From: a virus
Taxonomy: Duplodnaviria; Heunggongvirae; Uroviricota; Caudoviricetes
Length of the DNA stretch: 57,194 nt
Virus record (IMG/VR): IMGVR_UViG_2778261542_000002
Location: 1 to 57,194 of that record
Strand: one strand, 5' to 3'
Below the pieces are notes generated by a model. It did not search any database. It had not been told where the DNA came from and was given only the letters and a program-made list of their open reading frames with translations. A program made the position numbers and the translations under genes. This document shows, one piece after another, positions 11,082-30,844 of this stretch (within the stretch, counting starts at the first letter, position 1; each line of letters begins with the position of its first letter).

Positions 11082-11153
11082 TCTGCAATGCGTCGTGTTG
11101 CTGTCCGGTGTACGTCACAATTTTCTTAACCTGAAGTGACGAGGAGCCGGAAA

Positions 11154-12385: not shown

Positions 12386-12458
12386 GGGCTGCCGGTTAAC
12401 ACCGGCCGTCGCCGCACACCGTATTTTTATTCTTCAGCATGATGAGAAAGAGATAACG

Positions 12459-13031
12459 ATGGAAAGCACAGCCTTACAGCAGGCCTTTGACACCTGTCAG
12501 AATAACAAAGCAGCATGGCTGCAACGCAAAAATGAGCTGGCTGCGGCCGAACAGGAATATCTGCGGATTCAGTCAGGAGAAGGCAGAAACGTCAGTCGCC
12601 TGGACGAATTACGCAATATTATCGAAGTCAGAAAATGGCAGGTGAATCAGGCCGCCGGTCGTTATATTCGTTCGCATGAAGCCGTTCAGCACATCAGCAT
12701 CCGCGACCGGCTGAATGATTTTATGCAGCAGCACGGCACAGCACTGGCGGCGGCACTGGCACCGGAGCTGATGGGCTACAGTGAGCTGACGGCCATTGCC
12801 CGAAACTGTGCCATACAGCGTGCCACAGATGCCCTGCGTGAAGCCCTTCTGTCCTGGCTTGCGAAGGGGGAAAAAATTAATTATTCCGCACAGGATAGTG
12901 ACATTTTAACGACCATCGGATTCAGGCCTGACGCGGCTTCGGTGGATGACAGCCGTGAAAAATTCACCCCTGCGCAGAACATGATTTTTTCGCGTAAAAG
13001 TGCGCAACTGGCATCACGTCAGTCTGTGTAA
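12459..13031 (+). CDS. psu: Psu-like polarity suppression / capsid decoration protein (190 aa)
   Basis: 190 aa as in P4 Psu; last gene before cos; sequence begins MESTALQQAF, as I recall for P4 Psu. Confidence 0.75.
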   Translation: MESTALQQAFDTCQNNKAAWLQRKNELAAAEQEYLRIQSGEGRNVSRLDELRNIIEVRKWQVNQAAGRYIRSHEAVQHISIRDRLNDFMQQHGTALAAALAPELMGYSELTAIARNCAIQRATDALREALLSWLAKGEKINYSAQDSDILTTIGFRPDAASVDDSREKFTPAQNMIFSRKSAQLASRQSV

Positions 13032-13066
13032 AATTCCCCGAAAATCCTCCCGTTTTTACTGAAAAA

Positions 13067-13106
13067 AGCCATGCATCGATAAGGTGCATGGCTTTGCATG
13101 CGTTTT
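13067..13106 (+). terminator. putative terminator after psu
   Basis: 9-bp perfect stem AGCCATGCA/TGCATGGCT followed by a T-containing tract. Confidence 0.3.
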
Positions 13107-13195
13107 CCTGCCTCATTTTCTGCAGACCGCACCATTCCCGGCGCGGTCTGAGCGTGTCAGTGCAACTGCATTAAAACCGCCCCGCAAAGCGGGCG

Positions 13196-13214
13196 GGCGA
13201 GGCGGGGAAAGCAC
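13196..13214. other. cos site (P2/P4 19-nt cohesive end)
   Basis: Exact GGCGAGGCGGGGAAAGCAC, the P2/P4 cohesive-end sequence as I recall it, immediately after psu. Confidence 0.6.
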
Positions 13215-13334
13215 TGCGCGCTGTGGGTGCATAACCAAAAGTTTTGATGTCGTAAATATGCGCAAGATACTGGTTTCTGAAACTCGAGGTTGATATCTTA
13301 CTTGTCAAAAGGATATGAGATAAGGAGTGTATAA

Positions 13335-16076: not shown

Positions 16077-16083
16077 TTATTAA

Positions 16084-16107
16084 ATCATAGGGCGAAAGCC
16101 CTATGAT
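16084..16107. terminator. bidirectional hairpin between the convergent 913-aa gene and int
   Basis: Perfect 10-bp stem ATCATAGGGC/GCCCTATGAT with GAAA loop, T-rich flank. Confidence 0.4.
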
Positions 16108-17288
16108 TTTACTTTTATACCCCACCATGACATCAATTCTCTGCGTTGTTCTAAATAAATAGAACGATTATACGCCCGCCGTACTTCATTTTTATCTATA
16201 TGCGCTAAAGCTGATTCTATAATATCGGAATTAAAACCAGACTCGTTCAACGCTGTGCTAGCTATAGAACGAAGCCCATGAGCAACGAGTTTACCGCCAT
16301 AACCAATCCTTTTAAGAGCAGCATTAGCAGTTTGGCTATTCATAGGTTGTTTAGGATCATTCCTGCTGGGAAAAACATGTTCTCGGTGAGCGCTAATTGG
16401 CTTCATTACATCCAGAATCTCTAATGCCTGTGGTGATAAAGGAACAATGTGTTCCCGCTTAGCTTTCATCCGTTCGGCTGGAATAGTCCAGAGCTTCGTA
16501 TCGAGATCGATCTCTGCCCAACGGGCACCAGAGGCCTCAGAAGGGCGCACGAGCGTCAGGAGTTGCCATTCAATGAGACAGCGAGTCGGAACAGACAGAT
16601 TTGACATGACTAAAGAACGCATCAGCTTCGGCAATTCTTCTGGCCGCAGCGTCGGCATGTTTTGTTTTTTGGGCTTCTCAAAGGCCATTCCAATACCTGA
16701 TGCTGGATTGGCATCAATCAGACCAGTGTTTACGGCATAAATCATTATCTCGTTAATACGCTGCACTAGTCGACGTACAGTCTCAAGCGCTCCACGAGCT
16801 TTGATTGGTTCCAATGCTTCAACTAATATTCGGGCTTTAATTTGCTGAACGGGGATCTCACCGATGGCAGGGAATACATCTTTCTCCAATGAGCGCCAAA
16901 TGTCTTTTGCGTAATCAGGGGTAACGCTTTTACTTTTGAGCTGGAACCAGTTAGCGGCGACCATTGAGAAAATACTGTCCAGAGCGATTTGCTGCTGTTC
17001 CTCTGCAACTTCGGCCTGAATTTGTGGGTCAATTCCGTTGGCTAACAAGGCAAGGTAATCCGCTCTTAACCCTCGGGCGTCAGCAAGTGAAAGGGCGGGG
17101 AAAGCACCAAGCCCCATCATTGTCCGCTGTTTTGTCGCTGGACGTTGATAACGGAAACGCCAGAGCTTTTTCCCGCTGGTTTTCACTATCAGGAAAAGGC
17201 CATCGCCATCATGCAGAGTTAGATCCTTCTCTAACGCTTTAGCGCGAAGAACTTCGGTGTTGGTAAGGGGGCGTGTTGTCCGTGCCAC
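16101..17288 (-). CDS. int: P4-type tyrosine integrase (395 aa)
   Basis: Catalytic-domain boxes (LTLVRPSEASGARWAEIDL; HGLRSIASTAL...RAYNRSIY); adjacent to att core; GTG start. Confidence 0.9.
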   Translation of the reverse strand: MARTTRPLTNTEVLRAKALEKDLTLHDGDGLFLIVKTSGKKLWRFRYQRPATKQRTMMGLGAFPALSLADARGLRADYLALLANGIDPQIQAEVAEEQQQIALDSIFSMVAANWFQLKSKSVTPDYAKDIWRSLEKDVFPAIGEIPVQQIKARILVEALEPIKARGALETVRRLVQRINEIMIYAVNTGLIDANPASGIGMAFEKPKKQNMPTLRPEELPKLMRSLVMSNLSVPTRCLIEWQLLTLVRPSEASGARWAEIDLDTKLWTIPAERMKAKREHIVPLSPQALEILDVMKPISAHREHVFPSRNDPKQPMNSQTANAALKRIGYGGKLVAHGLRSIASTALNESGFNSDIIESALAHIDKNEVRRAYNRSIYLEQRRELMSWWGIKVKS

Positions 17289-17338
17289 TGTGGCCGCTCC
17301 TTCATGAATTGGTATACGCTTTTAGGTATACATCCTAC

Positions 17339-17402: not shown

Positions 17403-17437
17403 ACAAAAAAGCCCGCAGGGCTTGTGCCATGCGGGCT
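17403..17437 (-). terminator. rho-independent terminator between att core and int
   Basis: AGCCCGCA/TGCGGGCT stem followed on the minus strand by TTTTTT; positioned as a tmRNA-gene terminator would be. Confidence 0.45.
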
Positions 17438-17472
17438 TTCTGTACTTCACCGGACGTATCCGGATCATGATT

Positions 17473-17503
17473 TGGTGGAGCTGGCGGGAGTTGAACCCGC
17501 GTC
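17473..17503 (-). other. att core identical to the 3-prime 31 nt of ssrA (tmRNA); the tmRNA gene itself is absent
   Basis: Minus strand reads GACGCGGGTTCAACTCCCGCCAGCTCCACCA, the tmRNA acceptor/T-arm end as I recall it; upstream sequence does not continue as tmRNA. Confidence 0.7.
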
Positions 17504-17628
17504 AAAATTTATATAATCTTTTGTAAAATATACGTTTTTTCTATTGTTTTTGATCCGCGTATACTTCGCGTACACTTTGCCATTTGAACTTAAACATGCT
17601 GCCGTCGCTACATCATGACATGTTATTT

Positions 17629-18315
17629 TTACTTCTCATTTTCAAAGTCATCACGAATGTTAATTAGATCTGTAATCAAAGCGCCAACTTTAGTTGAAGG
17701 ATTTATCGAACCGTCTTTTTTGGCGGCATCTTCGACTCTTTTAGCATTGATTAATGCCGTATCGAGCCGATCTTGCAATTTATTAAATACACCTGATGCC
17801 TTTTTCTCATAATCTGGCATGTATTTTTTTAACTCAGCTAGCATTTGTGCGCCTTCACTTTTGCCTTTCTGAGGTGAAAATGATTTTCGGGTGTATCCAA
17901 AATGTAGTATCAGCCAGTACTCGAAACATGGTATGGAAGTTATAGCAACAAAAATCCCTTTTGGATTTAAGGAATTAATCCTGCTAAGAGCTTCATCATA
18001 GTTAGGGTGAGCGTCTCTATCAAAGACACAATAAACCTTATCATAAGGGTCGCTCCTTTTTTTTTCCGTATTATATTTTTCTTTTGCCCAAGATACCACA
18101 TTCATAGGGCTTGAGCCGCACTCTCCAGAAATCTCAACTATGCTTGCCGTGCTTATACGGCAATGTTTTATAAAATCTGTAAAATATGCGGGCTCAGTCT
18201 TCTCTCCCTCACAGACGATAAGAATTTTCTTCATTTGAGCTCGTGCTTTACTAACTCGTTTGAATTCATTATTACGCCGAGCCTTTCTTTTTTTGAACAG
18301 ATCTTCGCTTCCCAT
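17629..18315 (-). CDS. RloB-like protein (AbiLii-like partner of the ATPase)
   Basis: N-terminal ILIVCEGEKTEPAYF and CVFDRDAHPNYDE acidic motifs, read as RloB/Toprim-like; likely start is the ATG overlapping the upstream stop (TAATG), preceded by GGGAGAG. Confidence 0.65.
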   Translation of the reverse strand: MGSEDLFKKRKARRNNEFKRVSKARAQMKKILIVCEGEKTEPAYFTDFIKHCRISTASIVEISGECGSSPMNVVSWAKEKYNTEKKRSDPYDKVYCVFDRDAHPNYDEALSRINSLNPKGIFVAITSIPCFEYWLILHFGYTRKSFSPQKGKSEGAQMLAELKKYMPDYEKKASGVFNKLQDRLDTALINAKRVEDAAKKDGSINPSTKVGALITDLINIRDDFENEK

Positions 18316-19770: not shown

Positions 19771-20967
19771 TTACTTCTCAATTTTCATGTTCTCCGGATT
19801 TTTTGATACTTGGTCCTTACAAGCTGTCTTGCCATCATAGTCTACGAGATACGAACCATAATGCCTGAAAAGCATTTCCGGCCCTTTATGCCCCATTTGA
19901 GCTGCAAGCCAAAACAGATTTGCTCCTCGGCTGATATGGCTGGTGGCGAATGTATGCCTAGTTTGATATGGATTTCTGTATCGAATACCTGCTTTCCGTA
20001 ATGTTGGCACCCATGCTTTTTTCCTGATTGCATCAGCACTTGCCCAAGGCTTATTGGTCTTTGGGTCTTCAAAGACAGTAGCATCCTTCATGAATGTAAA
20101 TGGCTTCTGATTTATCAGCGCCAACATAGCCTCTTCTGTCAGTTCAACTTTACGAGTACCGGCTTTTGTCTTTGTTCCTTTGATAACACCGACAACACTT
20201 GCACTCTGGACATGGGCAGTTTTTCCAACAAAGTCGATATCACGCCATCTAAGGGCACATAATTCAGAACTACGCAGGCCTGTATGTATAGCGAACCGGA
20301 ACAGATTCTCCCATTGTTTGTTTCCGGCTGCTGCTAGTAATGCATCAACTTCTGTTGGTGATAGCGGATCAACCACGTAGCAGCTTTCTGCTTCTGACTT
20401 ATCACTTTGGTAGCGCGAAGCAGTTACCAACGATACGGGGTTAATTTGAAGTACCCCATCGGTTACGGCTTCATCAAGTGCTGACCGCAGGAAAGATAAC
20501 TGGTTGCGAATTGTTTTTAAGGTCGTTTTCTGGCTTTGAATCCACGCTTTCAGGATTGCTGGTGTTAATTCACTTGCAGGGCAAATGTGGAGTGAGGCTA
20601 ACGCACTGCGGCATTTTTTATAACCACCAATCGTTGAGGGTGAGAGTTTTCTCGTTTCGCAGATTTCAAGGTATTCGTCCAGGTACATTTTTACCGTTTT
20701 GCCTGCAGCAGCATTACCAAAAATTTTCAAACGAGCAGAACGGGGAAAATATTCCGCATAAATGAATGTTCCCCTTTCGATCTTATTATGAATTTCGCCG
20801 AGTGTGCGCTCGGCGTATTTAATGTTCTTTGGTGTTACTTCCAGATTGGAAAGAGGCTCACGACATTTAACTCCTTTGTAGGTGAAAGTTATATTGATCG
20901 TTTCGCCCTGGCGGTGTTTCCTGATTGTTACGCCGCGCGGTAGTTTGAGCAGTTTTGTCTGGCCCAT
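19771..20967 (-). CDS. int: phage tyrosine integrase (398 aa)
   Basis: Catalytic boxes TGLRSSELCALRWRDID and RHTFATS...LAAQMGHKGPEMLFRHYGSY. Confidence 0.9.
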   Translation of the reverse strand: MGQTKLLKLPRGVTIRKHRQGETINITFTYKGVKCREPLSNLEVTPKNIKYAERTLGEIHNKIERGTFIYAEYFPRSARLKIFGNAAAGKTVKMYLDEYLEICETRKLSPSTIGGYKKCRSALASLHICPASELTPAILKAWIQSQKTTLKTIRNQLSFLRSALDEAVTDGVLQINPVSLVTASRYQSDKSEAESCYVVDPLSPTEVDALLAAAGNKQWENLFRFAIHTGLRSSELCALRWRDIDFVGKTAHVQSASVVGVIKGTKTKAGTRKVELTEEAMLALINQKPFTFMKDATVFEDPKTNKPWASADAIRKKAWVPTLRKAGIRYRNPYQTRHTFATSHISRGANLFWLAAQMGHKGPEMLFRHYGSYLVDYDGKTACKDQVSKNPENMKIEK

Positions 20968-21768: not shown

Positions 21769-22322
21769 TTGCGTAACTCCGATAATTCGTTAAAGCGTTC
21801 CATAAACATCCCGTAGGCATGGCCTGGAGCCAGTGGAATCACGTTGAACATCTCTGTTGCCGGGATACCTTCCAGCACAGGCCAGAAAGAGCCATCATCA
21901 AGCCCGAGATCGCGGCGTTCGGTTGCCAGCATGATGAGATCGGCATATTTCACGGGTGTACTCATAACCGGGGGTAACCCGTATTTCTCACGGATTGCGG
22001 CGTCTATTTTTTCTTCCATCCGTTTATAGTCAGGAAGAAGGCGTTTCAGTGGAGCCGGGATGTCCTGGCAATACGCTTCTGTTGCATCATGCATTAACGC
22101 TTCAAAAGCAAATTCCTGCGGTACCAGCTGGCTGCAAAGCACCGCATGTTGGGCGACGCTGTAGAAGTGTGAAAGATGTCCTGCAAAGCGACAGATATTT
22201 GAAAGGGAAACCGCGATATCGTTAATAACGATGTCGTCTTTATTTATCCTGTCATAATAAAAATGCTTCCCGGAAAAAGTTTTAATAAATGACATTTTGT
22301 TCTCCACGTATATGCGCTGCAC
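21759..22322 (-). CDS. HD-domain phosphohydrolase
   Basis: H..H and HD motifs (SVAQHAVLCS; MHDATEAY). Confidence 0.7.
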   Translation of the reverse strand: MQRIYVENKMSFIKTFSGKHFYYDRINKDDIVINDIAVSLSNICRFAGHLSHFYSVAQHAVLCSQLVPQEFAFEALMHDATEAYCQDIPAPLKRLLPDYKRMEEKIDAAIREKYGLPPVMSTPVKYADLIMLATERRDLGLDDGSFWPVLEGIPATEMFNVIPLAPGHAYGMFMERFNELSELRKCA

Positions 22323-22808
22323 CGCGCTGAATTCGGGTAAAAGGAAGCCCTCACCGTCCGGCGATTATTGAGTCAATTACATTTCCATAAATGCCCCCGT
22401 AGGGGCGGTTAGTTTCTCCACAAAACAGAGAAGAACACCTGCGGTGGCAGCCGCCCGGATGGATTGGGTTATGAGCCTGTCGTCCGATGATGCTCTTCTC
22501 TGTTTTGTAAAAAGGATGGTACCAGCCGGAAGCAAGGGTACAAACTGGTACCGCCAAGACTACACACAGCATAAAGTTGTGGTGCAGGGTGCCTCCCGGT
22601 GCCTGGCGAAGGTTGCACACCAGGCGGGTGGGTATCCACAGAAGGTCGACTGTCAGCCTCAACCTTAACCCGCGTGCGCTGAGCCGCATTCACCACAACG
22701 CTAAGGATTCTCTTTGGTTGAAAATACTTAGCTGTTATGTGCCTGTCTTTTCACCACTTCAGGCTCGGTGGTATCCTTTTAAGCCCGTATACATAAAAGG
22801 AAAATCAA

Positions 22809-23006
22809 ATGACTTTTGATGAAAAAGAACTTGATAATGCAATTAATAAAATCATCGTAACGTCGCTCTTTTCCTGTCTCAGCGACACTCAGCAGAAACA
22901 GTTCTACGAATCGGCTTTCAACATGATCGAGCGTTGTTGTTTCTGCGATGCCGACGAGTTACCTGAAAAAATCAGGAAACAGTTGGCTGATGCTCTTCGA
23001 GTGTGA
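22809..23006 (+). CDS. hypothetical protein (65 aa)
   Basis: ORF only; converges on the next gene. Confidence 0.35.
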   Translation: MTFDEKELDNAINKIIVTSLFSCLSDTQQKQFYESAFNMIERCCFCDADELPEKIRKQLADALRV

Positions 23007-23247
23007 CTTTCTGACCAATTTTCTGAAATGTGCTCTCCGAATTTGGACAAATAGAAAAAGGCCATTTCCATTCAGGGTCTGATGGAAATACTTCAGCCTG
23101 TTCCAAAGCACGGCGTAAAGAGAACACAACTCCAGCCATAATCTGATGTTTCCCATTGGTCCAGCTATCGCCGCTCTGATCTACAGGGGCGGCTATGTCG
23201 TATGACCAAACGACTTCACAGTTATTGTTTAAAATCTGGACTTTCAT
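22972..23247 (-). CDS. hypothetical protein (~91 aa), first gene of the leftward early operon
   Basis: ATG at 23247 preceded by AGGTG; no N-like motif recognised. Confidence 0.35.
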   Translation of the reverse strand: MKVQILNNNCEVVWSYDIAAPVDQSGDSWTNGKHQIMAGVVFSLRRALEQAEVFPSDPEWKWPFSICPNSESTFQKIGQKVTLEEHQPTVS

Positions 23248-23453
23248 TTCATACACCTGCTTTAACATGAGTGCCTGGTGGCACAACATGACTCAACGAA
23301 TCATCCTGGACTTCATATGCCCCAGGCGGCTACTTCGTGGGCGTCCTGCCTGTTCGTTATCTTTGATATAAAATCTAACTTAACTTAGTTATTATGGCAA
23401 GAGAAAACACCAAACTTTTCTTAGTTCGGTGCCTTAGTTAGAGAAGAGAGGTC

Positions 23454-24080
23454 TTAGAGTTCGTATTGAACTCCTTTGACTACACCAATGATAAGGCAAT
23501 TACCATTGATAGGGATGTTGGGATACCGAGGATTTAATGGCACTAAAAACTTTTGAGGGCCATCGATGACTAATTTTTTTACTGTAGCTTCGTTTGTTCC
23601 ATCAAGTCGAGCGATGACTATTTTTCCATGACGAGGTTCTGCATCTGGATCTACAATCACTGTTGCGCCTTCTGGTATTGTTGGGAGGCCATTAGGGTTA
23701 GTCATGGAGTCACCTTTAACCTCTAATGCAAATGAGTTATCACCAATCTTTAATGATGTATCTACCCACTTGTCCACTTCACTAAACACTTCTGCTGCCC
23801 TGCACTCAGTAAACTGCCCAGCCTGAACCCACGATATTACAGGAACTCTGCGCATGTTTGTGACGAGTTTGCCTTCAAACTCAGCACCATAAAGAATGTA
23901 ATCTATTGACGTATTGAAGAACTTCGCTAATTTCGAAAGTGCCTCCCCACCAGGGGTATTGATGTCTTTCTCCCAGTACCCCACAGCAACGTCGCTTACT
24001 CCACAAAATTTACCCAATTCTTTCTGGGACGTTCCGGTAACTCTTCTCAGAGCTTTTATACGCTGACCAACCGTTTCCAT
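23454..24080 (-). CDS. cI: CI-type repressor (HTH + S24 LexA-like peptidase domain)
   Basis: N-terminal HTH (GTSQKELGKFCGVSDVAVGYWE) and C-terminal autocleavage domain with GDSM; divergent from the cro-like gene. Confidence 0.85.
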   Translation of the reverse strand: METVGQRIKALRRVTGTSQKELGKFCGVSDVAVGYWEKDINTPGGEALSKLAKFFNTSIDYILYGAEFEGKLVTNMRRVPVISWVQAGQFTECRAAEVFSEVDKWVDTSLKIGDNSFALEVKGDSMTNPNGLPTIPEGATVIVDPDAEPRHGKIVIARLDGTNEATVKKLVIDGPQKFLVPLNPRYPNIPINGNCLIIGVVKGVQYEL

Positions 24081-24177
24081 AGGAGCACCATTTCTTGAAT
24101 TGCTAAGTAATCTTAGTTTTTATTGACCAAAGATAGATTTGTAATTAGCATCTAATAAAACTTAGTTTGGAGGGCGT

Positions 24178-24378
24178 ATGACAACTGACGATATCGAAAG
24201 CTACTTCGGCAGTATTGAGAAAGTTGCTGCTTTTTTCGGCATAACAACTGAAGCCGTTTATCAGTGGCGAAACCGTCCGGGCCAGTTAATTCCAAAAGGA
24301 CGTGCAGCAGAAGCTGCATATAGAACTTGCGGACGGTTGCCATTTAAACCTGAGCTTTATGAAAAATCTAATGGATAA
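24178..24378 (+). CDS. cro: Cro-like HTH regulator
   Basis: 66-aa protein divergent from cI with helix-turn-helix-like segment. Confidence 0.6.
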   Translation: MTTDDIESYFGSIEKVAAFFGITTEAVYQWRNRPGQLIPKGRAAEAAYRTCGRLPFKPELYEKSNG

Positions 24379-24967
24379 ATCGATTAACAGAAACCACAGA
24401 ACGATGAGGCTAACCGTGGGTAAGCATCACTGGAAAGTAGAAAAACAGCCTGAGTGGTACGTGAAAGCTGTCAGAAAAACTATCGCAGCGTTGCCGGGTG
24501 GTTACGCTGAAGCAGCTGACTGGCTGGATGTAACAGAAAACGCATTATTTAACCGCCTTCGTGCCGATGGCGATCAGATTTTCCCGCTGGGATGGGCAAT
24601 GATTTTGCAACGTGCTGGTGGAACTCACTTCATTGCTGACGCTGTGGCGCAGTCTGCAAATGGCGTCTTTGTGTCTCTTCCTGACGTCGAGGATGTGGAC
24701 AACGCCGATATTAACCAGCGCCTGCTGGAAGTCATTGAACAGATTGGCAGTTATTCCAGACAGATTCGTTCGGCAATCGAAGACGGTGTGGTGGAACCGC
24801 ATGAGAAGACAGCAATTAACGACGAGCTGTATCTCTCAATTTCGAAGCTGCAGGAGCATGCAGCACTGGTCTACAAAATCTTTTGCATTTCAGAAAGTAA
24901 TGACGCCCGCGAGTGTGCAGCTCCGGGCGCCGTGGCGTGTCGTGACTGTGGAGAAACTAACGCATGA
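24359..24967 (+). CDS. phage regulatory protein (CII/YdaT-like, putative)
   Basis: Position immediately after cro; start uncertain (ATG 24359 or 24371). Confidence 0.45.
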
Positions 24968-25322
24968 ACAGTTTAACAACACACTACCGTCGCTCGCAAC
25001 TGATTGCGCTTCCTGTACCGGGTGGAAAAGCGAAGGTGGAGTATTGCTATGCAGTTAATGTACCAGGTGACAGGGAAATTGTAACCCACAGCTTTGCTGA
25101 GTGGGCTGTGGGTGATTTCAACCGGCAGAAGGAGACAGTCCTTTGCGACAAGTTAACCGCTGGTTCAAAGATCACTACGGAGTGCCCGTCAGAGTCATTC
25201 GTTGGGAGCCGGAAACACAACGGGTTATCTACCTCCGTGAAGGCTATGAGCATGAGTGCTTCAGCCCGCTCGAACAGTTTCGTCGTAAATTCAGGGAAAT
25301 AGAGGTCGGTCATGAGCACTAA
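24964..25322 (+). pseudogene. small gene apparently frameshifted between cII-like and replication genes
   Basis: Frame-1 ORF starts by ATGA overlap with the upstream stop; a second frame (from about 25113) reads ..[51 protein letters not shown] and ends overlapping the next start. Confidence 0.3.
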
Positions 25323-26223
25323 ATTAACCGGCTATGTATGGGATGGTTGCGCAGCGTCAGGCATGAAATTATCCAGCGTGGCAATTATGGCCCGCCTGGC
25401 TGATTTCAGTAATGACGAAGGTGTGTGCTGGCCATCAATTGAAACCATTGCCCGTCAGATTGGCGCGGGGATGAGTACCGTCAGGACGGCTATCGCACGG
25501 CTGGAAGCAGAAGGCTGGTTAACGCGTAAGGCGCGTCGCCAGGGTAACCGCAATGCGTCGAATGTTTATCAGCTTAACGTTGCGAAGCTTCAGGCAGCGG
25601 CATTTTCTCAACTGTCAGATTCTGACCCGTCAAAATTTGATGCGTCGAAATCTGGCAAAAAAGCGGGTTTTCACCCGTCAGAATCTGGCGGGGATCCGTC
25701 AGTAAAATCAAAACATGATCCGTCAGATAAAAAACCTTCTCGTCCGGACGCTTCGCAACCGGACACGCAGACGGATGAACAGGATTTTTTAACTCGCCAT
25801 CCTGATGCGGTTGTATTCAGCCCTAAAAAGCGCCAGTGGGGGACGCAGGATGATTTGACCTGCGCACAGTGGCTTTGGAAAAAAATCATCGCCCTGTACG
25901 AGCAGGCCGCCGAATGTGACGGCGAGGTGGTTCGTCCCAAAGAACCTAACTGGACAGCCTGGGCAAACGAAATTCGCCTGATGTGTGTGCAGGATGGTCG
26001 TACTCACAAACAAATCTGCGAGATGTACAGCCGCGTCAGCCGCGATCCGTTCTGGTGCCGTAACGTGATCAGCCCGTCGAAGTTGCGGGAAAAATGGGAT
26101 GAGCTTTCCCTGCGCTTATCGCCGTCCGTCAGCACGCACACAGAAAAACGTGAAGACCCGTACTTCAAAGCCAGTTACGACAACGTGGACTACAGCCAGA
26201 TCCCGGCAGGATTTAGGGGGTGA
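25312..26223 (+). CDS. phage replication initiation protein (N-terminal winged-helix DNA-binding domain)
   Basis: N-terminus MSTKLTGYVWDGCAASGMKLSSVAIMARLADFSNDEGVCWPSIETIARQIGAGMSTVRTAIARLEAEGWL, typical of phage replication proteins; acidic/Ser-rich linker. Confidence 0.65.
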   Translation: MSTKLTGYVWDGCAASGMKLSSVAIMARLADFSNDEGVCWPSIETIARQIGAGMSTVRTAIARLEAEGWLTRKARRQGNRNASNVYQLNVAKLQAAAFSQLSDSDPSKFDASKSGKKAGFHPSESGGDPSVKSKHDPSDKKPSRPDASQPDTQTDEQDFLTRHPDAVVFSPKKRQWGTQDDLTCAQWLWKKIIALYEQAAECDGEVVRPKEPNWTAWANEIRLMCVQDGRTHKQICEMYSRVSRDPFWCRNVISPSKLREKWDELSLRLSPSVSTHTEKREDPYFKASYDNVDYSQIPAGFRG

Positions 26224-26714
26224 TCATGAGTCTGTTAAATGACGTTCAGAAATTCATTGAAGCCCATCCGGGGTGCACTTCCGGAGACATTGCGGATGCT
26301 TTTGCTGGTTACTCACGGCAGCGCGTTCTGCAGTCAGCAAGCAAGTTACGTCAGAGTGGGCGTGTGGCTCACCGTTGTGAAGGAGATACACGCAGACATT
26401 TCCCGCGCCTGACTGAGAGAGCGCAGGAACCGGAACCACAACCAGTTCGAGAAACCAGACCTGTGCGCAATTTCTATGTCTGCACTAACGATCCCCGGGT
26501 GATTTTGTGCCTGACCCGCCAGGCTGAAGAACTGGAGTCAAGGGGCTTATACCGTCGTGCTGCAACCGTGTGGATGGCGGCATTCCGTGAAAGCCACTCC
26601 CAGCCAGAACGAAACAATTTTCTGACGCGTCGTGAGCGGTGCTTACGGAAAAGCAGCAAGCGCGCTGCATCGGGTGAAGAGTGGTATCTGTCAGGGAATT
26701 ACGTGGGGGCTTAA
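26220..26714 (+). CDS. hypothetical regulatory protein (164 aa; N-terminal winged-helix-like, basic C-terminus)
   Basis: ORF coupled to flanking genes (overlapping stops/starts). Confidence 0.5.
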   Translation: MIMSLLNDVQKFIEAHPGCTSGDIADAFAGYSRQRVLQSASKLRQSGRVAHRCEGDTRRHFPRLTERAQEPEPQPVRETRPVRNFYVCTNDPRVILCLTRQAEELESRGLYRRAATVWMAAFRESHSQPERNNFLTRRERCLRKSSKRAASGEEWYLSGNYVGA

Positions 26715-27367
26715 TGAGTAATAAATATTGCCAGGCGCTGGTGGAACTGCGGAACAAACCAGCCCATGAACTGAAGGAAGTGGGCGATCAGTGGCGCACG
26801 CCGGACAACATTTTCTGGGGAATTAACACCCTGTTTGGCCCGTTTGTTCTGGATCTGTTTACTGACGGTGATAACGCCAAATGTGCCGCGTATTACACGG
26901 CGGAAGATAACGCGCTGGCGCATGACTGGTCAGAACGTCTTGCGGAGCTTAAAGGTGCTGCCTTTGGTAATCCCCCATACAGCCGCGCCAGTCAGCATGA
27001 GGGGCAATACATCACCGGCATGCGTTACATCATGAAACATGCCAGTTCCATGCGTGATAAGGGCGGGCGCTATGTTTTCCTGATCAAAGCTGCCACCAGC
27101 GAAGTGTGGTGGCCGGAAGATGCGGACCATATTGCTTTTATTCGCGGGCGTATTGGTTTTGAACTGCCTGCCTGGTTTATCCCGAAGGATGAGAAGCAGG
27201 TGCCGACAGGAGCGTTCTTCGCTGGCGCTATTGCTGTTTTCGATAAGACCTGGAAGGGAGCGGCAATCAGCTACATCGGGCGCGATGAACTTGAGGCATG
27301 TGGTGAGGCCTTTCTGGCGCAGGTTCGCCAGCAGGCAGAAAAACTGGTCAGGGAGATGGCGGCATGA
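26714..27367 (+). CDS. phage N6-adenine DNA methyltransferase (Dam-like)
   Basis: NPPY catalytic motif (FGNPPYS) with the preceding WRTPDNIFW block. Confidence 0.8.
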   Translation: MSNKYCQALVELRNKPAHELKEVGDQWRTPDNIFWGINTLFGPFVLDLFTDGDNAKCAAYYTAEDNALAHDWSERLAELKGAAFGNPPYSRASQHEGQYITGMRYIMKHASSMRDKGGRYVFLIKAATSEVWWPEDADHIAFIRGRIGFELPAWFIPKDEKQVPTGAFFAGAIAVFDKTWKGAAISYIGRDELEACGEAFLAQVRQQAEKLVREMAA

Positions 27368-27690
27368 CGACGTTAACTCAATGCCAGCAGCAGGTGCTGG
27401 ATATGCTGATTTCTTACCAGAAAGAGCGTGGCTTTCCGCCAACCAATCAGGAGGTGGCAACCATGCTGGGATACCGTTCAGTGAATGCAGCGGTGGAGCA
27501 TCTTCGCGCACTGGAGAAAAAAGGCGTCATCACGATAAAGCGTGGCGTGGCCCGGGGTATCACTCTTCATACCGCGGTGAAGGACGACGACAGCGAGGCG
27601 GCCGGGATTATCCGCTCACTGCTTGCCGGTGAGGAAAACGCCAGGCTGCGTGCAGCCCACTGGTTATATGAGAGGGGCCTGAAAGTATGA
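27364..27690 (+). CDS. LexA-N-terminal-like DNA-binding protein
   Basis: QQQVLDMLISYQKERGFPPTNQEVATMLGYRSVNAAVEHLRALEKKGVI resembles the LexA DNA-binding domain; no peptidase domain. Confidence 0.55.
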   Translation: MTTLTQCQQQVLDMLISYQKERGFPPTNQEVATMLGYRSVNAAVEHLRALEKKGVITIKRGVARGITLHTAVKDDDSEAAGIIRSLLAGEENARLRAAHWLYERGLKV

Positions 27691-28076
27691 AGCTGATTCT
27701 GCCGTTTCCGCCCAGCGTGAACACGTACTGGCGACACCCCAACAAAGGGGCGTTTGCAGGTAAGAGCCTGATAAGTGCGGCGGGGCGAAAATTCCAGAGC
27801 GCGGCGTGCGCAGCAATAGTTGAACAGTTACGTCGTCTGCCGAAACCAACGTCGGCACCTGCTTCAGTGGAGATCGTGTTGTTTCCTCCGGATAACAGGA
27901 TCCGCGATCTGGACAACTATAACAAGGCGCTGTTTGACGCCCTGACCCACGCGGGGGTGTGGGAAGACGACAGTCAGGTGAAAAGAATGCTGGTGGAGTG
28001 GGGACCGGTTATCCCGGAAGGGAAGGTCGAGATCACTATCAGTAAGTATGAGAAACCGGCGGGTGCAGCCGCCTGA
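27687..28076 (+). CDS. rusA: RusA Holliday-junction resolvase
   Basis: LPFPPSVNTYWR ... RDLDNYNKALFDALTHAGVWEDDSQV matches the RusA signature. Confidence 0.85.
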   Translation: MKLILPFPPSVNTYWRHPNKGAFAGKSLISAAGRKFQSAACAAIVEQLRRLPKPTSAPASVEIVLFPPDNRIRDLDNYNKALFDALTHAGVWEDDSQVKRMLVEWGPVIPEGKVEITISKYEKPAGAAA

Positions 28077-28095
28077 TTAAGAGGAGAAACGAAGT

Positions 28096-28893
28096 ATGAA
28101 TAATCTGATGGTTATTGATGGTATTGAAGTTCGTCGTGATGCTTATGGGCGTTACAGCCTGAACGATCTGCACAGGGCTGCTGGTTCTCTGGATAAGCAT
28201 AAGCCTGCATTCTGGCTCCGCAATGAGCAAACTGAGCGTTTAATAAGCGAGTTGCAGATTTGCAACTCGGTCAATATAGAGCCAGTTAACGTTATTCGTG
28301 GCGGAAATAACCAGGGGACGTATGTCTGCAAAGAACTGGTGTATGCCTATGCAATGTGGATCAGCCCGTCATTCCATCTGAAGGTGATCCGTACTTTCGA
28401 TATGGTAACCAGCGCACCGGAAAAATTATCCGGGCAGGCTGCTGACAAGATGCAGGCTGGAGTGATTCTGCTGGACTTTATGCGCAGGGAGTTAAACCTG
28501 TCTAACTCTTCAGTGCTTGGGGCCTGTCAGAAACTCCAGGAGGCTGTTGGCTTACCGAATCTGGCACCGCGCTATGTCATTGATGCTCCTGCTGATGCGC
28601 CTGATGGCTCAAGCCGCCCCACGCTGTCACTGAGTGCACTGCTGAAGCAGTATGGTATCCGCCTGACAGCTAATCAGGCATATCACCAAATGGTGAAGCT
28701 GGGGATCGTCGAGCAGCGCGAACGATACAGCCGTACCGCGATTAACAACATCAAAAAATTCTGGTCGCTGACAGCGAAAGGCTGCATGTTCGGCAAGAAC
28801 ATCACCAGTCCCGCAAATCCGCGCGAGACGCAGCCGCATTTCTTCGAATCCCGATTCCCTGAGCTGTTAAAGCTGCTCGATACCGTTCATTGA
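28096..28893 (+). CDS. KilA-N domain protein (antirepressor-like)
   Basis: N-terminal IDGIEVRRDAYGRYSLNDLHRAAG..KPAFWLRN KilA-N pattern. Confidence 0.7.
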   Translation: MNNLMVIDGIEVRRDAYGRYSLNDLHRAAGSLDKHKPAFWLRNEQTERLISELQICNSVNIEPVNVIRGGNNQGTYVCKELVYAYAMWISPSFHLKVIRTFDMVTSAPEKLSGQAADKMQAGVILLDFMRRELNLSNSSVLGACQKLQEAVGLPNLAPRYVIDAPADAPDGSSRPTLSLSALLKQYGIRLTANQAYHQMVKLGIVEQRERYSRTAINNIKKFWSLTAKGCMFGKNITSPANPRETQPHFFESRFPELLKLLDTVH

Positions 28894-28894
28894 G

Positions 28895-29890
28895 GTGACC
28901 GTGAGAGCACTACTGACCCCTGAAATTGCCCCGCGTATGGGGATCGTATTGTTCAGACCAGGTTCAGAGCTGATGCCCCTGTTTATGCAGGGGCGTGTCC
29001 TGCTGGAGCCTGAGCCGGAACGTTATTCATCTTTCGCCAGTGGTGCCGTTCCGGCGGCATCACAAACGCTGGCGGATGATCCTGCCGTTCGGGCCGTGTT
29101 CCGCAATGAGGCAGTGATCCGTCGTGCTGGTGGCGTGGAATGTCTTGAAAGCTGGTTACTTCGTGAAAAAGGCTGCCAGTGGCCTCATTCCGACTGGCAC
29201 AGCGAGAACATGACAACAATGCGACACGCGCCGGGCGCAATCCGTCTGTGCTGGCACTGCGATAACCAGCTGCGCGATCAGTTCACGGAACGGCTGGAAT
29301 CAATGGCAACGGATAACTGTGCCCGCTGGGTGTTGTCTGTTGTGCGTCGGGATCTCGGTTTTGATGATAGTCACGTTGTGACAATGCCGGAACTGTGCTG
29401 GTGGCTGATTCGTAATGACTTGGCGGATGCCTTACCGGAAAGTGCAGCCCGTAAGGCACTGAGATTACCGAAGCCTGTTGTGCCGTCTGTCACCCGGGAA
29501 AGTGACCTTGTGCCTTCGGTTCCTGCCACCAGCATCATCCAGGGTAAGGCGAAAAAGGTGCTGGTGCTGAAAGTGGATCCGGAGTCGCCGGAGTCTTTTA
29601 TGTTACGCCCAAAACGTCGCCGCTGGGTTAATGAAAAGTACACACGTTGGGTTAAGACACAGCCGTGTGCATGTTGTGGAAAGCCTGCTGATGATCCCCA
29701 CCACCTGATAGGCCACGGTCAGGGTGGAATGGGTACAAAAGCGCATGACCTCTTTGTGTTGCCTTTGTGCAGAAAGCATCACGACGAGCTGCATGCGGAT
29801 ACCGTGGCATTTGAAGAGAAATATGGCTCCCAGCTGGAGCTGATATTTCGTTTTATCGATCGTGCACTGGCAATAGGCGTGCTGGCCTGA
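28895..29890 (+). CDS. DUF968-like protein with C-terminal Cys/His (HNH-like) cluster
   Basis: C-terminus CACCGKPADDPHHLIGHGQGG..CRKHHDELH. Confidence 0.55.
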   Translation: MTVRALLTPEIAPRMGIVLFRPGSELMPLFMQGRVLLEPEPERYSSFASGAVPAASQTLADDPAVRAVFRNEAVIRRAGGVECLESWLLREKGCQWPHSDWHSENMTTMRHAPGAIRLCWHCDNQLRDQFTERLESMATDNCARWVLSVVRRDLGFDDSHVVTMPELCWWLIRNDLADALPESAARKALRLPKPVVPSVTRESDLVPSVPATSIIQGKAKKVLVLKVDPESPESFMLRPKRRRWVNEKYTRWVKTQPCACCGKPADDPHHLIGHGQGGMGTKAHDLFVLPLCRKHHDELHADTVAFEEKYGSQLELIFRFIDRALAIGVLA

Positions 29891-29907
29891 TTTTGTGGAG
29901 AAAGTTG

Positions 29908-30255
29908 ATGCGTGATATGTATGAAGTATTGGACCGCTGGGGAGCATGGGCTGCAGCAGATAACAGTGGCGTGGACTGGCAGCCGATAGCAGCAGGCTTC
30001 AAGGGGCTTTTACCTCATGGCAAAAAGTCCCGGATTCAGTGTGATGATGACGAAGGCATTATGATAGACAGTTGTGTGGCTCGGTTGAGAAAGTATAAAC
30101 CAGAGGAATATGAGCTAATCATAGCTCACTTTGTCATTGGTATCTCATTACGCACTATTGCCAAGAAGAGAAGATGTTCAGATGGCACAGTTAGGAAAAA
30201 ATTGCAGACTGCCTTGGGGTTTGTTGAAGGATGTATTTGTTTGATTGAGTTCTAA
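29908..30255 (+). CDS. Q: 933W/H-19B-type antiterminator Q
   Basis: Starts MRDMYEVLDRWGAWAA..AAGFKGL, closely matching the 933W-type Q N-terminus as I recall it; GGAGA Shine-Dalgarno; last gene before the lysis region. Confidence 0.8.
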   Translation: MRDMYEVLDRWGAWAAADNSGVDWQPIAAGFKGLLPHGKKSRIQCDDDEGIMIDSCVARLRKYKPEEYELIIAHFVIGISLRTIAKKRRCSDGTVRKKLQTALGFVEGCICLIEF

Positions 30256-30274
30256 AAAGAATGAGGCGTAAGCC

Positions 30275-30844
30275 TCATTCTTTATCTTTAATTATAAGTT
30301 TCGATTTTTCATCATGCATTTTGTCTATCATAAAATACATACCTAATGCCGTTGTGTATATAATGTTGCATATGGTACTTAAATAAATAAACAAAAGTAA
30401 TGATTTCACTAGTGGATATGATGAAAGGTGTAACTCCTTGATGCTTGCGCTGGTTAGTTGAAGTGCGCCTCCAACGAAATACAGCGCGATACTCATAAAC
30501 GCTAAATAACCAAATAGATAAGTGAGGAATTTACGCCTTGTAAGTTTTTTACCTTTTAATACCGGAGGTATGCCATGCATAACTTCATCCATACCATCCT
30601 TACTGAAGGTTGCAACTGCAGCCATAGATGCAATGTAAAAACCAGATAGTATTTGAAGTATCCCGTTTACTAAAGACACAAGACTATCCTTCCCGAGAAG
30701 TGAGATGGTTTTCGGTAAGTAATAGATGGATAAAGTAATAATTGCAGCAGTGAAAATGGGTAAAACCCAGTCAAAAAATCGCTTCTCAGGATGCTTTATG
30801 CGTAGGTAGTCTATAGGTGTAAAAACCTTAGATAAAACATACAT
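30275..30844 (-). CDS. small four-pass membrane protein (189 aa) - cargo gene 2 of the Q-lysis cassette
   Basis: AAGGAGG Shine-Dalgarno before ATG at 30844; four hydrophobic ~20-aa segments; AT-rich; opposite strand to the phage late operon. Confidence 0.6.
   Translation of the reverse strand: MYVLSKVFTPIDYLRIKHPEKRFFDWVLPIFTAAIITLSIYYLPKTISLLGKDSLVSLVNGILQILSGFYIASMAAVATFSKDGMDEVMHGIPPVLKGKKLTRRKFLTYLFGYLAFMSIALYFVGGALQLTSASIKELHLSSYPLVKSLLLFIYLSTICNIIYTTALGMYFMIDKMHDEKSKLIIKDKE

What the first reader, a model, noticed from the sequence alone, without database searches (positions are those of the whole stretch)
22323..22808. Long untranslated, highly structured segment inside the early-left operon: candidate regulatory RNA
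About 480 bp between the HD-domain gene and the next ORFs has no convincing ORF but several strong inverted repeats: CAAAACAGAGAAGAACA paired with TGCTCTTCTCTGTTTTG enclosing a ~55-nt loop, GGTACCAG/CTGGTACC, CCTGG/CCAGG and CCCCGTAGGGG. On the minus strand this is a long leader within the pL-type operon. No N-like antiterminator gene was recognised in this prophage, so an RNA-based antitermination element (HK022 put-like), an sRNA or a terminator cluster are all possible.
Basis: seen in the sequence. Interest (0 to 1): 0.45.

Follow-up and report, generated by a model that had tools for sequence, protein, structure and literature searches.

The report
Two conserved phage RNAs, not a gene
The 'empty' 480 bp in this prophage's early-left operon holds two conserved structured RNAs on the minus strand: a divergent member of a known prophage small-RNA family (STnc100/PasD) with its own terminator, and a previously uncatalogued three-armed RNA whose tip copies the anticodon arm of the cell's initiator tRNA.

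Summary
The inverted repeats are real, the region folds better than shuffles (z -5.3, minus strand), and its ORFs show no coding signal.

- **Motif 1 (22576-22699, minus strand).** This is a sub-threshold STnc100 match in Rfam: 29.9 bits against a cut-off of 47. A covariance model built without it or its close relatives scores it 73.5 bits (E ~1e-15). The fold has four nested helices with strong covariation, plus a pseudoknot missing from the Rfam STnc100 consensus line. A conserved linker and an intrinsic terminator (22509-22552) follow.
- **Motif 2 (22415-22513, minus strand).** It is an independent three-way-junction RNA that gave no Rfam 15 match. It was found in more than 120 viral contigs, always directly after a terminator and ahead of early-left genes. 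Its invariant apical hairpin, GGG-NYCAUWN-CCC, matches the E. coli tRNA-fMet anticodon arm 14/14 in the family consensus.

Neither motif resembles HK022 put. The most likely workings are inferred, not shown. Motif 1 would be a terminated or processed trans-acting small RNA. Motif 2 would be a read-through-only leader and likely RNase III site. A tRNA-fMet decoy role for motif 2 is the novel reading.

The parts
22738..22772 (.). 35-nt hairpin-containing segment shared with lambda, P22 and many lambdoid phages. It marks the right boundary of the RNA region, just upstream of the rightward 65-aa ORF (22809-23006).
   Evidence: It matches lambda 34394-34428, between sieB and orf28/ral, and P22-like phages at 91-94% identity. 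On the plus strand it scores as a weak terminator-like site. Its function was not studied.
22575..22704 (-). Motif 1: structured core of an STnc100/PasD-family RNA, subtype B. P1 is 22691-22699 paired with 22576-22584. P2 is 22672-22687. The pseudoknot pairs 22660-22666 with the P5 loop at 22609-22615. P5 is 22601-22625. P6 is 22585-22599.
   Evidence: Rfam STnc100 scores 29.9 bits over 22506-22721. Covariance model R1 scores 73.5 bits, E ~1e-15. Covariation is, the pseudoknot, coordinates.
22553..22575 (-). Single-stranded linker (UUUAUGCUGUGUGUAGUCUUGGC); candidate seed region of the small RNA.
   Evidence: It stays largely conserved between the E. coli and Salmonella versions, while the adjacent terminator stem has been replaced outright. 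A seed role is inferred by analogy with PasD/STnc100.
22509..22552 (-). Intrinsic terminator: GGUACCAG...CUGGUACC followed by AUCCUUUUU.
   Evidence: The stem appears; the fold is -15.5 kcal/mol. In Salmonella homologues the stem is replaced by GUCGGCGUC/GACGCCGAC, but the CCUUUUUAC tract is kept. Other phages carry other GC-rich stems at the same place.
22415..22513 (-). Motif 2: three-way-junction RNA. The tRNA-fMet-like anticodon hairpin lies inside 22460-22481. The variable hairpin is 22441-22454.
   Evidence: Covariance model R2 scores 101.8 bits on the minus strand against 35.4 on the plus strand. RNAalifold gives 34 pairs, 8 of them with compensatory changes. In 50 distinct sequences 95.1% of cells are paired. 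There was no Rfam hit.
22393..22419 (-). Conserved tail GGAGAAACUAACC plus a small GC hairpin (GCCCCUACGGGGGC). The hairpin's sequence varies between phages.
   Evidence: The tail and a hairpin are present after motif 2 in nearly all lambdoid copies; the hairpin is CGACCUUGCAGGGUCG, UGGCGGUGGCAGCCGCCA and others. GUGGAGA can pair with the terminator's UUUUUAC, lengthening the stem to about 27 bp.
22351..22689 (-). 112-aa ORF (SfII_35 in phage SfII); an overlapping stretch (22377-22696) is called a 'frameshifted hypothetical' pseudogene in the source genome. This is an annotation artefact lying over the RNAs.

Best explanation
The gap carries two separate, conserved, strand-specific RNA elements. 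Both are transcribed leftward as part of the early-left operon of an SfV/SfII/e14-type prophage.

**Element 1.** This is a subtype-B member of the STnc100/PasD family of prophage small RNAs. It has a 125-nt core closed by helix P1. The core contains hairpins P2, P5 and P6 and a pseudoknot between the strand just after P2 and the P5 loop. A 23-nt single-stranded linker and an intrinsic terminator follow. I infer that transcripts from the pL-type promoter at about 23400-23372, which sits next to the repressor gene, stop at this terminator. They would then be trimmed at the 5' end, leaving a stable RNA of roughly 190-215 nt. That RNA would act in trans, probably with Hfq, through the linker. DicF, which is cut out of the dicB operon, is the precedent for this route.

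**Element 2.** This starts at the terminator's U tract and can therefore form only in read-through transcripts. It is a three-way junction with a 20-27-bp closing stem. I infer that RNase III cuts this stem, separating the upstream RNA from the downstream yfdR-yfdS-xis-int message, as the lambda tI/sib arrangement does. One arm ends in an invariant hairpin that mimics the initiator-tRNA anticodon arm, which implies a specific host partner.

**Status of each step.** Shown: family membership, the folds, the strand, the conserved order of parts, and the absence of coding signal. Inferred: the transcript ends, Hfq dependence, the seed, RNase III cleavage, and the partner of the tRNA-like arm.
For: **Motif 1**
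- Rfam STnc100 aligns over its full model length at 22506-22721 on the minus strand, E 3.4e-4. The SfV and SfII alleles reach 39.5 bits, ST64B 35.1 and P1 33.4.
- Model R1, built from 37 sequences that exclude the window, SfV and ST64B, hits the window at 73.5 bits, E ~1e-15.
- On 102 distinct sequences 93.8% of cells are paired and 16 of 23 pairs show double changes. The covariation score is 0.369 against at most 0.127 with partners slid, and 0 of 500 shuffles reach it.
- Pseudoknot: the mean best helix is 6.70 nt, against 4.70 +/- 0.14 (maximum 5.13) when loops are permuted among sequences. More than 25 different complementary sequence pairs sit at the same offset.
- The terminator is kept through complete replacement of its stem.
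- Subtype B lies downstream of CI-type repressors in three unrelated phage backbones.
- PasD is a Northern-verified RNA whose stability depends on Hfq (PMC8550237). Zhu et al. relate it to STnc100 (bioRxiv 10.64898/2026.05.13.724894).

**Motif 2**
- It occurs in more than 120 viral contigs, and 83 of 123 copies have no motif 1 upstream.
- The consensus three-way junction shows compensatory changes in all three helices, and a conserved U.G pair fixes the strand.
- 95.1% of cells are paired in 50 distinct sequences.
- Forward-strand scores are about 100 bits against about 37 on the reverse strand.
- The order is invariant: terminator, U tract, motif 2, GGAGAAAC tail, small hairpin, ribosome-binding site, first downstream gene.
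Against: - No transcript data were available, so the RNA ends are predictions.
- No convincing sigma-70 promoter lies directly upstream of motif 1 in the window (and reading of the sequence). In a repressed lysogen the small RNA may therefore not be made at all.
- The Rfam gathering score is not reached.
- This copy carries substitutions at positions that are otherwise invariant. The change at 22586 breaks a P6 pair. The change at 22478 turns the GGG stem into AGG. The change at 22517 weakens the base of the terminator. It may be partly disabled.
- Other subtype-B members have no terminator and sit directly in front of an ORF, which fits a cis-acting leader better than a trans-acting small RNA.
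- A plain RNase III site would not need the invariant arm of motif 2.
Confidence: 0.6

Rival explanations
1. Motif 2 is a molecular mimic of the initiator-tRNA anticodon arm. It would act as a decoy, inhibitor or sensor for a host factor that reads that arm. The candidates are the enteric VapC (MvpT) toxin, which cleaves the tRNA-fMet anticodon stem-loop, the 30S P site with IF3, and methionyl-tRNA synthetase. The long stem would only present the arm.
For: - The family consensus CGGGCUCAUAACCC is identical over 14 nt to nt 29-42 of metZ tRNA-fMet, including the three G:C pairs that mark initiator tRNA.
- With the loop left free in the search pattern, every bona fide copy keeps CAU at loop positions 3-5.
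- 48 of 50 distinct rows keep GGG/CCC, while every other helix covaries.
- Divergent P1-type and L028 copies, found by the model rather than by the pattern, also keep GGG-NUCAUAW-CCC.
- VapC of Shigella flexneri 2a and Salmonella cleaves the tRNA-fMet anticodon stem-loop (PMC5408214). The phages carrying motif 2 infect Shigella, Salmonella and E. coli.
Against: - The resemblance was noticed after the fact.
- Loop positions corresponding to tRNA nt 33 and 37 are not always the U and purine expected of a tRNA; CCCAUAA and CUCAUUC occur.
- Nothing outside the hairpin resembles a tRNA, and ARAGORN calls none.
- There is no functional or binding evidence and no tested link to vapBC.
- A cleavable decoy would be consumed.
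Confidence: 0.15
2. One or both motifs act in cis on RNA polymerase as a processive antiterminator, working like HK022 put. That would let the N-less phage read through its early-left terminators to reach xis and int.
For: - Subtype-B motif 1 sits at the head of early-left operons just after the repressor gene in several backbones.
- Subtype A sits at the head of the late operon, after Q.
- Motif 2 always lies at the first early-left terminator.
- No N-like protein was recognised; the first early-left ORF has no family.
Against: - There is no sequence or model similarity to putL or to the HK022 immunity region, and the architecture differs (PMC9378689).
- The window has only one copy and none in the rightward operon.
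- Many subtype-A members appear, by my reading of the flanks, to be promoter-core-terminator units. A strict scan found a canonical terminator after about 60% of all members and a canonical promoter before far fewer.
- PasD is seen as a discrete RNA on Northern blots (PMC8550237). Polymerase therefore terminates right after the element instead of reading through.
- Motif 2 lies downstream of its terminator, not upstream.
Confidence: 0.1
3. Motif 1 is a ligand- or protein-sensing leader (riboswitch-like) that controls the terminator or the downstream ribosome-binding site.
For: - The fold is a complex pseudoknot with near-invariant junction nucleotides.
- Both arrangements known from riboswitches occur: core plus terminator, and core plus ribosome-binding site.
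- In P1 and L028 the 5' strand of P1 can pair either with motif 2 or with the 3' strand of P1, which is a two-state design.
Against: - No conserved alternative pairing links the core to its terminator. The one case seen (the L010 type) does not generalise (reading).
- A 20-35-nt linker separates P1 from the terminator.
- Downstream genes are unrelated to one another.
Confidence: 0.06
4. The region encodes a small protein (SfII_35 or the frameshifted pseudogene of the genome annotation), and the repeats are incidental.
For: A 112-aa ORF exists and has been annotated in SfII and in E. coli genomes.
Against: - It has no protein family.
- There is no third-position bias, and indels shift the frame.
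- The region is unannotated in ST64B.
- G.U-containing, strand-specific covariation explains the conservation.
Confidence: 0.02

Closest known systems
STnc100 (Rfam RF02076) and PasD1/PasD2 prophage small RNAs
   Same: The core is the same: closing helix, AAU junction, P2 hairpin with a UNNGC loop, P5, and the CACCGGGAGGCACCCGGCACC segment. A linker and a Rho-independent terminator follow. All are carried on enterobacterial prophages.
   Different: The window scores below the Rfam cut-off (29.9 bits; 39.5 for the SfV allele; cut-off 47). P2 has the compensated GCGGC/GC(A)CGC version instead of CCCCC/GG(N)GGG. It sits in the early-left operon after the repressor gene, not between Q and the lysis genes, and I could not recognise a promoter of its own. 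The Rfam consensus structure line shows no pseudoknot.
DicF in the dicB operon of prophage Qin
   Same: It is a small RNA embedded in a repressor-controlled early operon of a lambdoid prophage. It is made by termination at its own terminator plus RNase III and RNase E processing (from my own knowledge: Faubladier et al. 1990). P1 carries a 'dicF-like region' in the same ban-operon leader that holds motifs 1 and 2.
   Different: There is no sequence or model similarity; Rfam gave no DicF hit. DicF is 53 nt and has no complex fold.
Lambda tI/sib retroregulator
   Same: A terminator whose hairpin is extended into a long RNase III-type duplex only in read-through transcripts. Here the U tract UUUUUAC pairs with the downstream GUGGAGA.
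   Different: sib lies beyond int and controls int from the 3' side. Motif 2 lies upstream of the genes it precedes and carries two extra conserved arms. RNase III cleavage was not tested.
HK022 putL/putR
   Different: There is no similarity. The fold differs, there is a single copy, and the element is followed by a terminator that related family members use to end the small RNA.
Anticodon arm of E. coli initiator tRNA-fMet, and mRNA operators that mimic tRNA arms such as thrS
   Same: GGG-CUCAUAA-CCC is identical to nt 29-42 of tRNA-fMet in the motif-2 consensus. The idea of an mRNA leader copying a tRNA anticodon arm has the thrS operator as a precedent (from my own knowledge).
   Different: It is not a tRNA, no synthetase gene lies downstream, and the partner is unknown.

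Membership tests
STnc100 (RF02076) | Score at or above Rfam's gathering threshold (47 bits) | tested here: not met
   29.9 bits in the window; 39.5 bits for the SfV and SfII alleles.
STnc100/PasD wider family (as defined here by model R1) | Core helices P1, P2, P5, P6 with the conserved GGUGAAU and CACCGGGAGGCACCCGGCACC segments | tested here: met
   R1 was built without the window, SfV or ST64B and scores the window 73.5 bits, E ~1e-15, over the full model. One P6 pair is broken by the substitution at 22586.
STnc100/PasD wider family | Pseudoknot between the strand after P2 and the P5 loop | tested here: met
   The window has AAGGUUG (22660-22666) and CAACCUU (22609-22615). Family-wide the mean best helix is 6.70 nt against 4.70 +/- 0.14 when loops are permuted.
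STnc100/PasD wider family | Rho-independent terminator 15-115 nt after the core | tested here: met
   22509-22552, -15.5 kcal/mol plus U5. The family median distance from core to terminator is 36 nt.
STnc100/PasD wider family | Location between the Q antiterminator and the lysis cassette | tested here: not met
   The window copy lies between the CI-type repressor and yfdR. Q is at about 29935-30303. Subtype A shows the Q/lysis context.
STnc100/PasD wider family | Expressed as a discrete, Hfq-dependent RNA | not testable with these tools
   Shown only for PasD (PMC8550237). No expression data exist for this locus.
HK022 put RNA | Sequence or profile similarity to putL/putR | tested here: not met
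   blastn-short finds only 7-mers, E 2.9. R1 and R2 give no hit in HK022 22000-30000, which contains putL.
HK022 put RNA | Two adjacent stem-loops of about 70 nt with no closing helix | tested here: not met
   Motif 1 is a 125-nt pseudoknotted domain closed by P1. Motif 2 is a three-way junction closed by a 20-bp stem. The put architecture is taken from PMC9378689.
HK022 put RNA | Copies just downstream of both early promoters | tested here: not met
   There is a single copy in the 57-kb window, about 680 nt from the putative leftward promoter, and none in the rightward operon.
HK022 put RNA | Suppresses termination by binding the RNA polymerase beta' zinc-binding domain | not testable with these tools
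   Needs read-through reporters and rpoC mutants.
Lambda-type nut site (boxA + boxB + N) | Single-stranded boxA (YGCUCUU(U)A) next to a boxB hairpin, with an N gene | tested here: not met
   Many motif-2 copies have UGCUCUU in the 3' arm, but it is base-paired, covaries with its partner (GCCCUU, GUUCUU) and reads GUUCUU in the window. No N-like protein family was found.
tRNA gene | Cloverleaf recognised by a tRNA finder | tested here: not met
   ARAGORN finds 0 genes in the window and none in motif-2 loci.
Initiator-tRNA anticodon-arm mimic (proposed) | Three G:C pairs closing a 7-nt loop with CAU at positions 3-5 | tested here: met
   The family keeps GGG/CCC in 48 of 50 distinct rows, and every loop is NYCAUWN. 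The identity to metZ is 14/14. The window copy is AGG/CCC: 13 of those 14 consensus positions, with a longest exact match to metZ of 12 nt (GGCUCAUAACCC).
RNase III processing site (sib-like) | Near-perfect duplex of at least 20 bp; cleavage dependent on rnc | tested here: inconclusive
   The duplex length is met: 20 bp, or up to 27 bp with the U-tract extension. Cleavage cannot be tested here.

The most novel reading that the evidence does not exclude
[quoted passage not shown] It is placed so that it forms only when the first early-left terminator is read through. It would serve as a decoy, inhibitor or sensor for a host factor specific to that arm. The leading candidate is the VapC/MvpT toxin of Shigella and Salmonella, which would make it an RNA-based counter-defence. 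The alternatives are the 30S P site with IF3, and MetRS. In P1 and some other phages it is fused to the STnc100-type core so that the two folds exclude each other, which would suggest a switch.
Probability: 0.18. Interest if true: 0.85.

Novelty: new variant of a known kind. Interest (0 to 1): 0.6.

Why it matters
Some part of the 486-bp stretch matches 2780 of 5426 complete E. coli genomes, and 678 cover at least 80% of it. It is currently annotated as a hypothetical protein or a frameshifted pseudogene.

Three things follow from recognising it as two RNAs.
- A recurrent annotation error is corrected.
- The STnc100/PasD family is extended to SfV-, SfII- and ST64B-type phages and to P1. It also gains a second genomic context (early-left operons) and a pseudoknot, which changes how its structure and targets should be modelled.
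- A widespread RNA motif that gave no Rfam 15 match comes to light at the first early-left terminator of lambdoid phages that lack N. Its invariant initiator-tRNA-like hairpin gives a concrete, testable handle on a host factor.

If the tRNA-mimic reading holds, it would add an RNA decoy to the known interplay between phages and tRNA-targeting host defences.

Tried and rejected
- **Protein-coding reading.** Rejected: no family, no codon-position bias, and indels that break the frame.
- **put homology.** Rejected.
- **boxA/nut reading of UGCUCUU in motif 2.** Rejected because the sequence covaries as a stem and differs in the window.
- **Riboswitch-like pairing.** In the L010-type STnc100 the 3' strand of P2 could pair with the terminator's 5' arm, but other members lack this (reading).
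- **Canonical tRNA.** Rejected.
- **attP remnant.** Unlikely, because the element lies about 1.4 kb from the right-hand end of int (20967), while the attachment site is expected beyond int's left end, near 19700.
- **Own promoter for motif 1.** None scores at least 9/12. The GAGAAT and TAAGTA candidates are weak.
- **E. coli K-12 prophage CPS-53.** It has the yfdP-yfdS genes but lacks both motifs.
- **Genome-contig scan.** The loop-free pattern was swamped by chance hits and added only a Citrobacter copy.
- **PasD sequences.** They were not in the held supplements, so PasD could not be aligned directly.
- **Papers not held.** King et al. 2011 on put-like RNAs and the P1 genome paper were unavailable.
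- **Automated parse of P2/P5 and the first A/B typing.** These were error-prone and were replaced by alignments made with the covariance models.
- **Substitution rate.** The window's six substitutions against the common allele are not a significantly higher rate than in the flanks: 6 in 486 bp against 3 in 400 bp.

Full report
**Setting.** The window is 100% identical to the E. coli EC1722-1 chromosome. A P4-like satellite at about 8000-17300 is followed by an SfV/SfII/e14-type prophage, which starts at its integrase (19771-20967, minus strand). On the minus strand the gene order is:
- the CI-type repressor (23454-24080);
- a pL-like promoter (23400-23372);
- a 91-105-aa ORF with no protein family;
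- a rightward 65-aa ORF (22809-23006);
- the gap under study;
- yfdR (HD-domain 5'-deoxynucleotidase), yfdS, two small ORFs and int.

**Observation.** The region folds far better than shuffled sequence, with z = -5.3 on the minus strand. The annotated ORF over it is not coding. It has no family. Its substitutions against ST64B fall 22/32/26 by codon position, and 1-, 1- and 20-nt indels break the frame.

**Motif 1: family membership.** Rfam in E-value mode gives one meaningful hit. STnc100 aligns over its full model at 22506-22721 on the minus strand, at 29.9 bits against a cut-off of 47. The SfV and SfII alleles reach 39.5 bits, ST64B 35.1, and phage P1 33.4 between upl and tciA in the ban operon. 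The 15-mer CACCGGGAGGCACCC recovered at least 120 IMG/VR contigs, several with tandem copies 219-254 nt apart. I built model R1 from 37 representatives that excluded the window, SfV and ST64B. It scores the window at 22575-22704 with 73.5 bits, E ~1e-15. It finds nothing in lambda, HK022, K-12 CPS-53 or F1055.

**Motif 1: structure.**
- On 102 distinct sequences the four nested helices are 93.8% paired. Sixteen of 23 pairs show changes on both sides. The covariation score is 0.369 against at most 0.127 when partners are slid, and 0 of 500 shuffles reach it.
- P6 is invariant. That is partly because P6 was my search anchor; P1 shows a G-to-A change in the P6 loop.
- P2 exists in two fully compensated versions: A is CCCCC/GG(N)GGG and B is GCGGC/GC(A)CGC. 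The window is B.
- The 6-11 nt that begin 3-5 nt after P2 are complementary to the P5 loop in nearly every member, with more than 25 different sequence pairs. The mean best helix is 6.70 nt against 4.70 +/- 0.14 when loops are permuted. This pseudoknot is not shown in the Rfam STnc100 consensus structure line.

**Motif 1: context.**
- Subtype A lies between Q antiterminators, a DNA methylase or TerB on one side and the NanS-p esterase, holin or lysozyme on the other.
- By my reading of the flanks, many A members have a TTGACC-18-TAAATT-type promoter that ends about 7 nt before P1. A strict scan found a canonical terminator after about 60% of all members, at a median of 36 nt, and a canonical promoter before far fewer.
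- Subtype B lies after CI-type repressors in the window, in L016 and in L036. In L023 it sits at the 5' end of a reverse-oriented accessory operon.
- Some B members have an extended 18-bp P1, no terminator, and an ORF 25-45 nt downstream.

**Motif 1: the window copy.** A 23-nt linker follows the core and is largely conserved in Salmonella. The terminator stem next to it has been replaced entirely, while CCUUUUUAC is kept. I found no good promoter directly upstream.

**Motif 1: what is published.** Published work says only three things:
- PasD is an Hfq-dependent small RNA with many RIL-seq partners (PMC8550237).
- STnc100 and PasD share ancestry (bioRxiv 10.64898/2026.05.13.724894).
- A copy of STnc100 lies 75 nt downstream of stx2 (PMC12370729).

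Function is unknown in all three.

**Motif 2: an independent element.** A pattern from its interior recovered at least 120 further viral contigs, and 83 of 123 copies have no motif 1 upstream.

**Motif 2: structure.**
- RNAalifold on 17 representatives gives a three-way junction.
- The first helix is a 20-bp closing stem with compensatory changes at four pairs and a conserved U.G pair. That pair would be C.A on the other strand.
- The second is an arm, CCGGR...YCCGG, that encloses the invariant CGACGGGCUCAUAACCCAAUCCA.
- The third is a variable hairpin that also covaries.
- Model R2 scores the window 101.8 bits on the minus strand against 35.4 on the plus strand.
- In 50 distinct forward rows 95.1% of cells are paired.
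- Rfam 15 has no match for it.

**Motif 2: conserved surroundings.** The order is constant:
- a GC-rich terminator hairpin of variable sequence;
- U5-7, then AC;
- motif 2;
- G(U)GGAGAAAC;
- a small GC hairpin of variable sequence;
- a ribosome-binding site;
- the first downstream gene, which is YfdP-like in 75 loci, RdgC-like in others, and yfdR in the window.

UUUUUAC can pair with GUGGAGA, which lengthens the stem to about 27 bp only in read-through RNA. This is the logic of lambda tI/sib, a comparison that rests on my own knowledge of lambda.

**The tRNA-like arm.**
- The apex of the invariant arm, CGGGCUCAUAACCC, is identical over 14 nt to nt 29-42 of E. coli initiator tRNA-fMet. That stretch is the anticodon stem-loop with its three G:C pairs.
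- I repeated the search with the 7-nt loop left free. Every bona fide copy has NYCAUWN: CUCAUAA 50, CUCAUUC 9, UUCAUAU 8, GUCAUAU 7, CUCAUUA 6, CCCAUAA 4, UUCAUAA 2 and CCCAUCC 1.
- GGG/CCC is kept in 48 of 50 distinct rows, whereas all other helices covary.
- ARAGORN sees no tRNA.
- I noticed the resemblance after the fact, so it is a lead and not a result.
- Known readers of that arm include the enteric VapC toxin (PMC5408214). The ribosomal P site with IF3, and MetRS, are further candidates from my own knowledge.

**Links between the two motifs.**
- In P1 (L007 1423-1514 and 1497-1626) and in L028, motif 2 is fused to motif 1. Its 3' arm, GUUGCGGUG, is the 5' strand of motif 1's P1, so the two folds exclude each other.
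- The usual tail of motif 2 (GUGGAGAAAC plus a hairpin) resembles the first 25 nt of motif 1 (GUGGUGAAU plus P2).
- The P1 ban-operon leader holds four such long-stem cassettes, interleaved with tRNA genes.

**The window's own copy.** It differs from the common E. coli allele at six positions. These include 22586 (a P6 pair broken), 22478 (GGG to AGG) and 22517 (base of the terminator). The rate is no higher than in the flanks. The hits on otherwise invariant positions suggest this copy may be impaired.

**Verdict.**
- Motif 1 is a divergent member of a known family in a new context, with a newly recognised pseudoknot.
- Motif 2 is an uncatalogued, widespread phage RNA whose function is open. 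RNase III-type processing of read-through transcripts is the conservative reading. Mimicry of the initiator tRNA is the novel one.

Noticed in passing
window 10000-10276 (minus strand): C4 antisense RNA (74 bits), isrK (71 bits) and c4-a1b1 (50 bits) all pass their Rfam thresholds. They lie inside a P4-like satellite that carries sid, an ogr/delta-like gene, psu, a primase and an integrase.
   Followed up: no
window 17405-17806 (minus strand): A partial tmRNA match (31 bits, E 9e-9) and a partial IsrM match (39 bits) lie next to the satellite's integrase. This is probably a duplicated ssrA 3' end marking an attachment site.
   Followed up: no
window 22738-22772: A 35-nt segment with a hairpin is 91-94% identical to lambda 34394-34428 (between sieB and orf28/ral), to P22-like phages and to many other lambdoid phages. 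Here, as in lambda, it lies just upstream of a rightward-reading accessory gene. It may be a promoter region or a recombination joint.
   Followed up: partly
L007 (phage P1 AF234173) 482-1626: The ban-operon leader holds four long-stem cassettes that share arm sequences (CACAACAGGUAAGRG...). One encloses a T-arm-like GGGUUCGAAUCCC and two enclose the CAU hairpin. They are interleaved with tRNA-Asn and tRNA-Thr and are followed by an STnc100-type core. The annotated ORFs plp and upl lie antisense to them and may be spurious.
   Followed up: partly
L030 367-990; L047 1720-2343; L084 4374-5461; L019 2324-3356: Tandem arrays of three to five STnc100-type genes occur downstream of a Q-type antiterminator gene. 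Most units end in their own terminator. In L030 the array follows a lambda-like late promoter and terminator and is followed by what looks like a tRNA gene.
   Followed up: partly
L129 (phage 118970_sal3) and L130 (phage F1055), upstream of motif 1: Both carry an inserted tRNA T-arm-like fragment (CUGGUUCGAUUCCAG). In F1055 the interior of motif 1 is replaced by unrelated sequence, while both strands of the closing helix, the linker, the terminator and motif 2 are kept. A 190-aa ORF is annotated antisense across the whole region.
   Followed up: no
window 22377-22696; SfII 27535-27873; E. coli genomes generally: The RNA region is annotated as a hypothetical protein (SfII_35) or as a 'frameshifted' pseudogene by NCBI's annotation pipeline. 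Some part of the 486-bp stretch matches 2780 of 5426 complete E. coli genomes.
   Followed up: yes
window 22478, 22487, 22517, 22544, 22586, 22714: These six substitutions separate this strain from the common allele (98.8% identity). At least three fall on positions that are otherwise invariant or structurally important in the two RNAs.
   Followed up: yes
L005 (phage mEp460) 2851-2991: Model R1 gives a weak hit (22.9 bits, E 0.001) just upstream of motif 2, overlapping an annotated rightward gene. It could be a degenerate remnant of motif 1 or chance.
   Followed up: no
window 54506-54562 (plus strand): A weak, partial match to the Shigella small RNA CssrB (32 bits, cut-off 76) lies near the right end of the prophage.
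   Followed up: no
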